NCBI GenBank assembly: GCA_951406725.2
Contig: OX597822.1
Coordinates: forward strand, 74,462,001-74,526,000
Length of the DNA stretch: 64,000 nt
Source: Octopus vulgaris
Lineage: Eukaryota
Direction: 5' to 3'
Shown here: piece after piece, positions 28,271-30,728 of the stretch
How positions within the stretch are numbered: position 1 is the stretch's first letter
Layout of the letters: each line of letters begins with the position of its first letter
Program-made: the position numbers and the translations under genes
Notes under the pieces: model-generated
Seen by the model: only the letters and a program-made list of their open reading frames with translations
Databases searched by the model: none
What the model was told of the DNA's origin: nothing

Positions 28271-30728
28271 CTTTTTATTGTAGCCACACAGGGCTAAACA
28301 CAGAATAAAAATGGACGAAATACAATGTAGAATTTTTTCTTTTCGAGGTGGAATGGGTGGGGCACACAAAAAAAACGTTTGATCAATAGGGATCTGTGGG
28401 TTGTGTGGTGTATAAAAAAGCAATATAAATAAAGTTCACAGTTTAGGTGTAGCCTTGGAAAGAAAAACCTACAAAAAAGACCAAGGTCACCTCAGACAGT
28501 TCGAAAATGAACACATGATAAGTCGCCTTACCTCGTTGTCTCTTTTGATCACAGATTTACGCTTAAAATAGTGTCGTCTTTCATACTGACCATTTTTGCC
28601 ACTTTTACCCACTTTTTATTAAAACATTCGTTCGACAAAGCCTTCCTCTCTATTCTCATCCTCCTTTTCAAGTGGTACTTGAAAAAGTTGACGAGAGACT
28701 GACCAGAGAGGAAGGTGTTTGTTTGCAGTCCTTTCAAACGCGTCCACCACACACATTCTTTCGCCATAGCCATCAGCGTAACGAAAACCGTTTTCCCTTC
28801 CCGTTTAAAGGAAGGTGGTGGAACAATATTCACGATAGACTCGGCCGATAAGCGGGCCCGTCCTACACGCGACAACAGCTGTTCGACGAAGGTCCACAGC
28901 TCTGAAATATCTGGACACTGCACGAGTGCGTGCAGAACGGTTTCGTCGCTCTGACCGCATCTCGGGCAGGTCGGTCCGGTGATGGTTTTCGAACCGTGCC
29001 TGTAGCTCTTCTCTCGAACAGGTAGTGCGTCTCGATAGCATTGCCAAGCCAGGGATTTCTGGAAGTTATCCATAGGCCCCGGCCCGAAAGTCGTCCTGAA
29101 CAGGCGGGTTAGGAATTTCTCGTCGACGCTCAGGTTTGCCCCGAGTGTGTCGTCGGACCTCCCCTCCACTAGTCCTCTATAGAATGCTTTAGTCGTTTGT
29201 AAGTTGCACAAGTTTGACCCCGGTCGGCAGAGCTGCTGTAGAGCTTGGCGACACTCTCGGTGCCAATCGCCCAGTTTCGGTCTCTTCCTGATCCACGTTT
29301 GCAGTTCGGTCAGTGAGACGAGCTGCGGGAAGGCGCGCCTCACAAACGACGCCCACACCTGTTCACCGTCATCGATGAAGTTCCGGAGATGTCGCAGTCT
29401 CAGCGCATGCCTGCGCATCATCAACCACGGCATGCCTAGTCCTCCATTCAACGGATATTGACAGCAAATGGACCTCCTCACCATTGGAACGCCACCCTTC
29501 CACAGGAAGCGGAAGCGTATGCGTTCCAGTTTGGTGATGGTGGCGTCGGGACAGGGCACGACGGTCAGGCGGTAATCGATGACGGATGCGATGTACGCGT
29601 TCGCCACCTCCGCCCGACCTTTTAGAGACAGCTTTCTCTCGGCCCATGTTTGGCTGAGAGCGACCACTCTACTCGTGATCTCGTCCCAGTTCTTATCCAT
29701 TTGGAGATCCGGACCGAACCAGACCCCGAGCAATTTAACCGGTCCGTCCGTCCAACGTCCCACTACTGAGCCGCAGTCGGACGGCATGGGCTTGCTTCTC
29801 CAGGTGCCGAGTAGCAAACCCACTGACTTTTCCGGATTAATCTTCGCTCCCGTCACCGTTTCGTATTTTCTTAGTGTCTCGCCTATCATCTGGATGTGTT
29901 TTTCGCTCGACACTATGACGGTGACATCGTCCGCATATGCCGACACGCTCGTCCCGCAACCCAGTTCCCGTGGGATGCCCCTCAGTGTCGCCAGCTTCCG
30001 CAGTAGCGGCTCGAGAGTCAATACATACAGAAGCGCCGACAGGGGACACCCTTGACGGACCGAACGCGTGATGTCAAACGGTTTCGACAGGTGGCCGTTC
30101 ACCCGAATCACCGATCGGATGCCGCTATACAAGGCAGCGATCCAACCGCGGAAGACGGGACCGAAGCCAGCCGCCCTGAGGACGGCCGCCAAGTACCGAT
30201 GGTCGACCCTATCGAAGGCTTTAGACTGATCCAAATTGATCAGCGCCCCACCCATGCCAGGATCCTTAACTACCCTGTCCACAATGTAGCGCATCAGATG
30301 GAGGTTGTCATGTATGGTTCTGCCCGGCACGGCGCATGTTTGCGCCCTGTCGACCAGTTTACCAATGACAAGCGCCAACCTCTCGGCTATTACTTTGGCC
30401 AAAATTTTCAAATCTGCGTTCAGCAGAGTGATGGGCCTGAAATTATCTATAAAATTCCCCTTGTTTGGGTCTTTCTTCAGCAACGTCACTGCACCTCGGC
30501 TTACGAAACCGGGGATTCTCCCGTTTTGTTGCCAGTTGCAGTAGACTGATGCCAAGAGGTCGCCAAACAAGTCTGGCATTTGACAATACAGCTCGTAGGG
30601 TAAACCATCCAAACCAGGCGACTTATCCCTCGCGCAGCCCGCCATCGCATCCCGCACGTCAGCGGCTGTGATGGGACTTTCACAACACTCCGCTTCTCTT
30701 GCCGAGAGCCGCGGCAGGTCGGTCAGGT
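28271..30728 (-). mobile_element. 5'-truncated Tx1/L1-clade non-LTR retrotransposon in a (GATA)n tract
   Basis: GC-rich block with an RT ORF, a ~280-bp 3' UTR ending in AATAAAAAG (minus strand, 28279-28271) and (GATA)n on both sides. The reading frame runs upstream (YLTDLPRLSAREAECCESPITAADV) right up to the microsatellite. Confidence 0.93.
28549..30657 (-). CDS. ORF2 fragment: reverse transcriptase plus C-terminal CCHC zinc knuckle; endonuclease lost by 5' truncation
   Basis: KSPGLDGLP, NFRPITLLNADLKILAK, LDQSKAFDRVDH, VRQGCPLS, YADDVT and CPRC..ETVLHALVQC. No stops over 702 codons. The listed start is not a true initiator. Confidence 0.95.
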   Translation of the reverse strand: MRDAMAGCARDKSPGLDGLPYELYCQMPDLFGDLLASVYCNWQQNGRIPGFVSRGAVTLLKKDPNKGNFIDNFRPITLLNADLKILAKVIAERLALVIGKLVDRAQTCAVPGRTIHDNLHLMRYIVDRVVKDPGMGGALINLDQSKAFDRVDHRYLAAVLRAAGFGPVFRGWIAALYSGIRSVIRVNGHLSKPFDITRSVRQGCPLSALLYVLTLEPLLRKLATLRGIPRELGCGTSVSAYADDVTVIVSSEKHIQMIGETLRKYETVTGAKINPEKSVGLLLGTWRSKPMPSDCGSVVGRWTDGPVKLLGVWFGPDLQMDKNWDEITSRVVALSQTWAERKLSLKGRAEVANAYIASVIDYRLTVVPCPDATITKLERIRFRFLWKGGVPMVRRSICCQYPLNGGLGMPWLMMRRHALRLRHLRNFIDDGEQVWASFVRRAFPQLVSLTELQTWIRKRPKLGDWHRECRQALQQLCRPGSNLCNLQTTKAFYRGLVEGRSDDTLGANLSVDEKFLTRLFRTTFGPGPMDNFQKSLAWQCYRDALPVREKSYRHGSKTITGPTCPRCGQSDETVLHALVQCPDISELWTFVEQLLSRVGRARLSAESIVNIVPPPSFKREGKTVFVTLMAMAKECVWWTRLKGLQTNTFLSGQSLVNFFKYHLKRRMRIERKALSNECFNKKWVKVAKMVSMKDDTILSVNL

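What the first reader, a model, noticed from the sequence alone, without database searches (positions are those of the whole stretch)
28271..28310. SINE tail X resembles the 3' end of the Tx1-clade LINE: candidate SINE-LINE pair
Seen: the LINE 3' end (minus strand) is TCTGTGTTTAGCCC-TGTGT-GGCTACAATAAAAAG. SINE A tail X is TCTGTGTTTAGCCC-CTTGT-GGG(C/T)AATAAAGAAA (e.g. 12074-12105 and 45812-45843 minus). They share a 14-nt exact match, a GCC-based stem-loop and AATAAA at the same terminal position. Known: shared 3' stem-loops mark stringent SINE/LINE partners, typically CR1, L2 or RTE, and are uncommon for L1/Tx1. Inference: this or a related Tx1 family mobilises tail X SINEs.
Basis: partly seen in the sequence, partly recalled or inferred. 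Interest (0 to 1): 0.72.

Follow-up and report, generated by a model that had tools for sequence, protein, structure and literature searches.

The report
SINE shares hairpin tail with Tx1
A short non-coding jumping element in this likely octopus genome ends in nearly the same 31-base hairpin tail as a Tx1-type retrotransposon, so it is likely copied by a sister family of that retrotransposon, a tail-sharing partnership I found no report of for Tx1.

Summary
The match is real: 26 of 31 aligned columns, at the 3' end of both elements, reached by 0-3 of 5000 shuffles per copy. The LINE is a 5'-truncated Tx1-type element (242 bits to Xenopus Tx1, 148 to human L1). Its tail belongs to the family: two contigs of other, about 8% different copies run from the 3' UTR through it, so it is not a stray SINE fragment. 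The SINE hairpin is supported by compensated stems around one CUUGU loop in three SINE tail types. But this exact LINE family is an unlikely driver: its loop is CUGUGU in a shifted stem, it sits in a (CTAT)n repeat while 0 of 10 tail-X copies do, and it looks younger. Also, 8 of 10 tail-X copies lie inside composite SINE arrays; only 2 end free. Best reading (0.6): a sister Tx1 family with a CUUGU tail mobilises tail X. That family was not seen, as no genome was held. Published Tx1-SINE partners share targets, not tails. New variant of a known kind.

The parts
28549..30730 (-). 5'-truncated ORF2 of a Tx1-type non-LTR retrotransposon: 723 open codons, RT domain plus C-terminal zinc knuckle; endonuclease and ORF1 missing
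   Evidence: (RVT_1 E 2e-31, zf-RVT at its cut-off)
28270..28548 (-). 279-nt 3' UTR of the LINE
28271..28304 (-). LINE 3' tail shared with SINE tail X: 14-nt block, 5-bp hairpin with CUGUGU loop (28296-28281), AATAAA
28115..28269 (-). (CTAT)n microsatellite at the LINE 3' junction, likely the target site
30731..30911 (-). (CTAT)n/(AT)n microsatellite at the LINE 5' truncation point
9485..9868 (+). composite SINE: head, one tail-X unit (shared block from 9683), then a unit that starts in mid-head and ends in tail Y
11527..12275 (+). composite SINE array: three 184-nt tail-X units (blocks at 11705, 11889, 12073) plus a tail-Y unit; 9-nt candidate TSD with 1 mismatch
33240..33603 (-). composite SINE: one tail-X unit (block from 33450) plus a tail-Y unit
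45445..46230 (-). composite SINE array: head, three tail-X units (blocks from 46032, 45842, 45652) plus a tail-Y unit; about 17-nt TSD around the whole
37990..38039 (-). free 5'-truncated tail-X copy (tail only); no clear TSD
57117..57263 (+). free 5'-truncated SINE copy ending in tail X; no clear TSD

Best explanation
SINE tail X and the 3' end of this Tx1-type LINE share a 31-base hairpin tail, and the SINE is likely copied by the reverse transcriptase of a sister Tx1 family that would recognise that hairpin. Shown: the match, its 3'-terminal position, the Tx1-type ORF2, the tail in other LINE copies, and compensated stems around the SINE loop. Inferred: a tRNA-type SINE took the last 30-45 nt of a Tx1 RNA by template switch. 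The partner's ORF2 binds the hairpin and starts target-primed reverse transcription at the A-rich end. The partner is not the (CTAT)n family seen here but a relative with a CUUGU loop and another target preference. Many tail-X copies then ended up in front of a second SINE unit, either by insertion into SINE heads or by read-through copying of composites.
For: Match beyond chance at both 3' ends. ORF2 scores 242 bits to Xenopus Tx1 ORF2 and 148 to human L1 ORF2. X1 records 1 and 2 bridge UTR and tail with at least 31 nt on both sides; they differ by 12 letters and 6 gaps in 152 nt, and by 11 and 6 in 134 nt. The tail bin is the deepest of the 13 bins over the 3' UTR in 4 of 4 runs, barely so in X2 (the tool warns that depth is no copy number). 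Variants of the LINE tail lean towards the SINE: a 4-nt deletion at 28304 in X1, X2 and X9, a loose end in X9 that reads like the SINE's upstream TTTGTCC, and an added base giving AATAAGAAA in X1 and X7. In X7 the contig with that added base has the same depth value (44.5) as a 466-nt contig only 82% alike in ORF2. If these are one contig (inferred), a diverged Tx1 family keeps the tail. Sister families exist, with ORF2 relatives at 61-72%. The hairpin is paired in 93.5% of 92 cells and 3 of 4 pairs change on both sides. Two free, 5'-truncated copies end exactly at tail X. The likeness fades at a T5 run of the LINE, and 0 of 9 SINE tails checked have a T4 run, as expected for a Pol III transcript.
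Against: The predicted partner family was never seen: no genome was held and five collection scans gave nothing relevant. Non-Tx1 LINE ends could not be compared. The LINE breaks one pair in the SINE's hairpin register (C-C at pair 8-18) and has a different loop. Its own hairpin is predicted at 0.87-1.0 for the four inner pairs in the last 40-60 nt but only 0.04-0.26 in 100-600 nt of context. Tail folds are no better than shuffles (z from +0.13 to -1.5). The CUUGU loop is shared with tails Y and W, whose flanks do not resemble the LINE, so the SINE tails could stem from another LINE clade. Eight of 10 tail-X copies are not 3'-terminal, and neither free copy has a clear TSD. The covariation rests on about three related tail types that I picked by pattern, so it counts few independent events.
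Confidence: 0.6

Rival explanations
1. The SINE tails (X, Y, W; all with a CUUGU loop) come from a non-Tx1 LINE clade, and this Tx1 lineage picked up a tail-X-like end from a SINE long ago by template switch or 3' capture.
For: The loop is common to three SINE tail types but differs in the LINE. Tail-sharing partners in molluscs are CR1-Zenon, CR1, L2 and Nimb (PMC11481361, section 13). RTE, Dong-R4 and CR1 families are recently active in Octopus vulgaris (PMC13282606, Table 1).
Against: The tail is kept across diverged LINE copies and seems better kept than the UTR upstream, which a passively captured fragment should not be. The 14-nt block 5' of the hairpin is shared only between tail X and the LINE.
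Confidence: 0.17
2. This very (CTAT)n-associated Tx1 family mobilises tail-X SINEs.
For: It is the only LINE end in the window that matches, with an exact 14-nt block.
Against: 0 of 10 tail-X copies are followed by (CTAT)n, although the window has 14 such arrays. Target choice is set mainly by the LINE endonuclease (PMC4494074, introduction passage). The loops differ, and in L2 the loop decides specificity (PMC4176376, passages). SINE X units are 3.3-8.2% from their majority sequence, while a 723-codon frame stays open in only 0.35% of simulations at 6.6% decay.
Confidence: 0.1
3. Tail X is a relic of an early Tx1 partnership. Its spread is mostly as a passenger inside X-Y composite SINEs copied through tail Y by another LINE.
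For: All 4 composites end in the same Y subtype, and 7 junctions in 4 loci fall at the same base in mid-head. Candidate TSDs of about 17, 9 and 7 nt enclose whole composites. At 45584 the terminal Y unit is less diverged (2.4%) than the X units before it (6.6-7.7%).
Against: Two free copies end at tail X. Units within one array belong to different X subtypes. In 2 of 4 composites the Y unit is far more diverged than the X unit (11.4 vs 3.3%, 14.1 vs 5.5%), which fits X inserting into an older SINE; the Y majority rests on only 5 copies.
Confidence: 0.1
4. Chance likeness, or a SINE fragment that happens to lie at the end of this one LINE copy.
For: The match is short (31 columns), and one low-complexity spot in 64 kb scores as high.
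Against: 0-3 of 5000 shuffles, terminal in both elements. Other LINE copies carry the tail.
Confidence: 0.03

Closest known systems
SINEU / Tx1-Mar of crocodilians (Kojima 2015, PMC4494074; passages read)
   Same: A SINE proposed to be mobilised by a Tx1-clade LINE; preferential insertion into another repeat.
   Different: There the link is a shared target, the heads come from U1/U2 snRNA, the ends are poly(A), and no LINE sharing the SINEU-1 3' terminus was found. Here the link is a shared hairpin tail, the head looks tRNA-derived, and the targets seen differ.
Maize ZmSINE2/3 with LINE1-1_ZM, and Chlamydomonas SINEX-3 with L1-1_CR (Ohshima 2012, 2013; PMC3472496 passages, PMC3747384 passages and tables part 1)
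   Same: tRNA SINEs that share a roughly 50-80 nt 3' end with an L1-clade LINE; in maize a hairpin with compensatory changes.
   Different: These are plant and algal L1s, the only 3 L1-tailed SINEs among 58 pairs listed; none is Tx1 or animal.
Stringent L2/CR1 pairs (UnaL2-UnaSINE, ZfL2; PMC4176376 passages) and bivalve SINE-LINE pairs (PMC11481361 section 13)
   Same: A short shared 3' end with a stem-loop; 31 nt at 84% lies just under the 35-61 bp and within the 72-95% range reported for bivalves; one SINE body with swappable tails.
   Different: Partners there are L2, CR1, CR1-Zenon and Nimb; recognition was shown by assay for ZfL2 and is only inferred here.
Microsatellite-targeting Tx1 families Kibi and Koshi, and crocodilian (TTCC)n/(TTTC)n families (as described in PMC4494074)
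   Same: A Tx1-type LINE embedded in a short tandem repeat on both sides.
   Different: The repeat is (CTAT)n; specificity is seen at one full locus plus partial contig support; no close tree relationship was shown.

Membership tests
Tx1 clade non-LTR retrotransposon | RT closer to Tx1 than to mammalian L1 or other clades | tested here: met
   242 bits (E 4e-66) to Xenopus Tx1 ORF2, 148 to human L1 ORF2, 78 or less to R2. The quick tree puts it in a 100%-supported group with argonaut and cuttlefish proteins, among Tx1-like rows; no vertebrate L1 row was included and the careful search did not finish.
Tx1 clade non-LTR retrotransposon | ORF2 with AP endonuclease, RT and C-terminal CCHC knuckle | tested here: inconclusive
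   RT and zf-RVT are present. The endonuclease is cut off in this copy but present in full-length relatives at about 45% identity.
Tx1 clade non-LTR retrotransposon | Target preference (common in the clade, not universal) | tested here: inconclusive
   (CTAT)n on both sides. X1 records 1 and 2 run on into the repeat, and the bin that includes 12 nt of repeat keeps 49-78% of tail depth. No count of independent insertions.
Stringent SINE-LINE pair | Shared 3'-terminal sequence | tested here: met
   26 of 31 columns, 0-3 of 5000 shuffles
Stringent SINE-LINE pair | The tail is part of the LINE family, not of one copy | tested here: met
   two bridging contigs about 8% different from the window copy (32 of 5468 pieces were shown)
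Stringent SINE-LINE pair | Same stem-loop, above all the same loop, in both partners | tested here: not met
   For this LINE copy the loop is CUGUGU against CUUGU and the register is shifted. A sister family could not be examined.
Stringent SINE-LINE pair | Same 3' repeat and insertion signature | tested here: not met
   The LINE ends in (CTAT)n; tail X ends in AAATA, and 0 of 10 copies are followed by CTAT.
Stringent SINE-LINE pair | Overlapping age profiles | tested here: inconclusive
   SINE X units 3.3-8.2% from their majority; this LINE copy looks younger; family-wide profiles need a genome.
Stringent SINE-LINE pair | Hairpin-dependent mobilisation in trans | not testable with these tools
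   needs a retrotransposition assay
tRNA-derived SINE | [quoted passage not shown] | tested here: inconclusive
   A-box-like and B-box-like words are visible in the head (box motifs recalled). ARAGORN found 0 tRNA genes in the window and Rfam 0 hits in 45400-46300, as is usual for decayed SINE heads.
CORE, Meta or Deu SINE superfamily (octopus OR1/OR2) | Central conserved domain | not testable with these tools
   No reference sequence was retrievable: supplement searches found no matching letters, and one file could not be searched.

The most novel reading that the evidence does not exclude
The dominant octopus SINE is driven by a set of stringent, target-choosing Tx1 families. Each donated its own version of one hairpin tail (X, Y, W; same CUUGU loop, compensated stems) and its own target taste. 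Tail Y would go to (ATT)n repeats. Tail X would go to a fixed base inside the SINE's own head, so that it stacks on itself into tandem arrays. This would be an animal L1-group lineage that reads an RNA hairpin, and a SINE that targets itself.
Probability: 0.2. Interest if true: 0.78.

Novelty: new variant of a known kind. Interest (0 to 1): 0.55.

Why it matters
L1-group LINEs are the textbook exception to tail sharing: only 3 of 58 listed SINE-LINE pairs have L1 tails, all from plants or algae (PMC3472496, PMC3747384). The one Tx1-SINE link I found in print rests on shared targets (PMC4494074). A hairpin tail shared by an animal Tx1 and a SINE would support the idea that strict 3' recognition is ancestral in the L1/Tx1 group and was lost in mammals. 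It supplies a 31-nt element to test this by mutation. It would also name a candidate engine for part of the octopus SINE expansion (11.6% of the O. vulgaris genome, PMC13282606). The claim of no prior report rests on nine full-text searches. Repbase, Dfam, SINEBase entries and the Zenodo library of PMC13282606 could not be seen and may already note the pair.

Tried and rejected
No whole genome was held. Protein-based scans for related LINE loci found none in metagenome, prokaryote-genome or viral contigs. A 21-nt tail pattern gave 2 metagenome hits, both judged chance because they have no SINE or LINE sequence around them, and 0 hits in prokaryote genomes. Four look-ups in earlier findings returned nothing. 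No run on record as RNA holds the LINE (no RNA holder listed), so nothing is said on expression. Single-sequence folding of the tails is no better than shuffles, and tail X alone shows no compensatory change. tRNA and Rfam scans were empty. Six Tx1 protein queries found no second Tx1 fragment in the window. TSD search found nothing convincing for the two free tail-X copies or the composite at 33240-33603. The careful tree did not finish; only the quick tree was read. Rejected: a SINE fragment abutting one LINE copy (other copies have the tail); pure chance; the LINE being CR1, L2, RTE or R2 type.

Full report
Setting. The window is animal DNA rich in microsatellites and SINEs. The nearest named relatives of the LINE protein come from Argonauta hians (63%) and a cuttlefish, so the host is likely an octopod; this is an inference. 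No genome was held.

Observation. The LINE end at 28304-28271 (minus) is as quoted. The 14-mer occurs 12 times with up to 2 mismatches against 0.36 expected: the LINE, ten SINE tail-X copies and one unrelated look-alike. It is exact in 5 of the 10 copies. Copy 45842 aligns to the LINE end at 26 of 31 columns, and for each copy 0-3 of 5000 shuffles of the LINE's last 60 nt score as well. Three of 6188 background windows reach the score: the LINE end and two overlapping CT-rich windows. AATAAA is present in 5 of 10 copies and lies 2 nt later in the LINE.

The LINE. 28549-30730 (minus) is an open 723-codon piece of ORF2 with RT and zinc knuckle. It is cut at the 5' end, followed by a 279-nt UTR, and bordered by (CTAT)n on both sides. 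It scores 242 bits to Xenopus Tx1 ORF2 and 148 to human L1 ORF2. A quick tree groups it with cephalopod and unnamed proteins among Tx1-like rows; no vertebrate L1 was in the tree. Sister families at 61-72% protein identity exist.

Does the tail belong to the family? I laid contigs of 4 of 24 listed runs on 28258-28900; 32 of 5468 pieces were shown. X1 records 1 and 2 bridge the UTR-tail border with at least 31 nt on each side and differ from the window by 12 letters and 6 gaps in 152 nt, and 11 and 6 in 134 nt. They are thus other copies, and both run on into the CTAT repeat. Three more pieces in X2 and X7 enter the tail by 22-29 nt, under the tool's bridging rule. X1 may be the window's own sample. 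The tail bin is the deepest of the 13 UTR bins in all four runs, barely so in X2, and depth is no copy number. The two loop differences that mark the SINE are not among the 40 of 115 variant rows shown, so the extra depth is probably from LINE relatives rather than SINEs (inference). Three variants move the LINE end towards the SINE: a 4-nt deletion at 28304 (X1, X2, X9), a loose end in X9 that resembles the SINE's upstream TTTGTCC, and an added base after AATAA (X1, X7). In X7 that last contig has the same depth value, 44.5, as a 466-nt record that is 82% alike in the ORF2 end and has 363 further letters on the UTR side. If they are one contig, a diverged Tx1 family keeps the tail; I could not verify this.

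The hairpin. Folding single tails gives nothing beyond shuffles, and tail X alone shows no compensatory change. But the same SINE body carries at least three tails, all with a C-CUUGU-G loop and different stems: X GCCC/GGGY, Y RGGC/GCCT, W TGGC/GCCA. I aligned 22 SINE tails and the LINE. I left out copy 9683, which has a 1-nt deletion, copy 45842, identical in this stretch to 46032, and tails too decayed for my patterns. The 4-bp stem is paired in 93.5% of 92 cells, 3 of 4 pairs change on both sides, 0 of 500 shuffles reach the covariation score, and slid controls pair 23-55%. RNAalifold finds the same stem. The rows are related and were picked by pattern, so this counts only a few independent events. 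The LINE breaks one pair in that register and forms its own 5-bp stem with a CUGUGU loop, predicted strongly in the last 40-60 nt and weakly in longer context.

Why not this family. None of the 10 tail-X copies is followed by (CTAT)n although the window has 14 such arrays, and target choice is set mainly by the LINE endonuclease (PMC4494074). The loop differs, and loops decide specificity in L2 (PMC4176376). Eight X units are 3.3-8.2% from their majority, whereas the LINE frame would stay open in 0.35% of simulations at 6.6% decay and 17% at 2%.

SINE anatomy. Eight of 10 tail-X copies lie in four composites that end in a tail-Y unit. Seven junctions fall at the same mid-head base and one at another. 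Only 38024 and 57229 end free; both are 5'-truncated and lack a clear TSD. Two models fit. In the first, X inserts serially at a fixed site in SINE heads: arrays mix X subtypes, and in 2 of 4 composites the Y unit is much more diverged than X. In the second, composites are copied whole through tail Y: all four end in one Y subtype, TSD candidates enclose three of them, and in one the Y unit is the less diverged. I cannot separate them. None of 9 SINE tails checked has a T4 run, while the LINE has T5 just upstream of the shared block. This fits capture of a LINE end by a Pol III transcript and allows read-through.

Mechanism and odds. Most likely (0.6) a sister Tx1 family with the CUUGU version of the tail recognises the hairpin and copies the SINE; recognition, direction and partner are inferred. 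Rivals: a non-Tx1 origin with capture by Tx1 (0.17), this exact family (0.10), a relic tail carried in composites (0.10), chance (0.03).

Against what is known. Tail-sharing pairs are well known for L2, CR1, RTE and Nimb, and for three plant or algal L1s (PMC3747384 passages and tables part 1 of 2; PMC3472496 passages; PMC11481361 section 13). For Tx1 I found only SINEU/Tx1-Mar, linked by target and not by tail (PMC4494074 passages). For octopus I read parts 1-2 of 3 of PMC13282606 (its supplement was listed, not read) and passages of PMC8967140, PMC4758252, PMC4824008 and PMC5786205; what I read names no partner for an octopus SINE. Ohshima and Okada 1994 and Kojima and Fujiwara 2004 were seen only as citations. 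Nine searches showed no Tx1 tail-sharing SINE, but repeat databases were out of reach.

Verdict. A real feature and a new variant of a known kind: a credible, untested SINE-Tx1 tail partnership whose actual partner remains to be found. Interest 0.55.

Noticed in passing
tails at 25699-25725 +, 26303-26329 +, 33021-33047 -, 51648-51674 + (Y); 32825-32851 -, 26523-26549 +, 31209-31235 + (W): The same SINE body carries three tail types with one CUUGU loop and compensated stems, pointing to a set of related partner LINEs.
   Followed up: yes
SINE copies near 24715, 26140, 33230, 35130, 51460: Tail-Y SINEs tend to sit in (ATT)n-like sequence on both sides, which suggests a partner with a taste for that repeat. 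Not counted against a background.
   Followed up: partly
9485-9868, 11527-12275, 33240-33603, 45445-46230: Composite SINE arrays with 7 junctions at the same mid-head base; either self-targeted insertion or a multimeric family.
   Followed up: partly
28115-28269 and 30731-30911: The Tx1-type LINE lies in a (CTAT)n microsatellite; this repeat is not among the Tx1 targets named in the passages of PMC4494074 that I read.
   Followed up: partly
about 32080-32590, minus: A stretch that looks by eye like the decayed 3' end of an RTE-type LINE, bordered by a short duplicated sequence; the label is recalled, not tested.
   Followed up: no
20027-23200: A 3.2-kb array of a 12-nt CAA/CAG unit, about 263 copies, open in several frames.
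   Followed up: no
near 34379 +, 41180 -, 50428 -: Three copies of another interspersed repeat, unrelated to tails X, Y and W.
   Followed up: no
protein P0012: A 61% identical Tx1-type ORF2 piece is filed under a bacterial genus from a 1.8-kb metagenome-assembled contig; likely animal host DNA in that bin.
   Followed up: no
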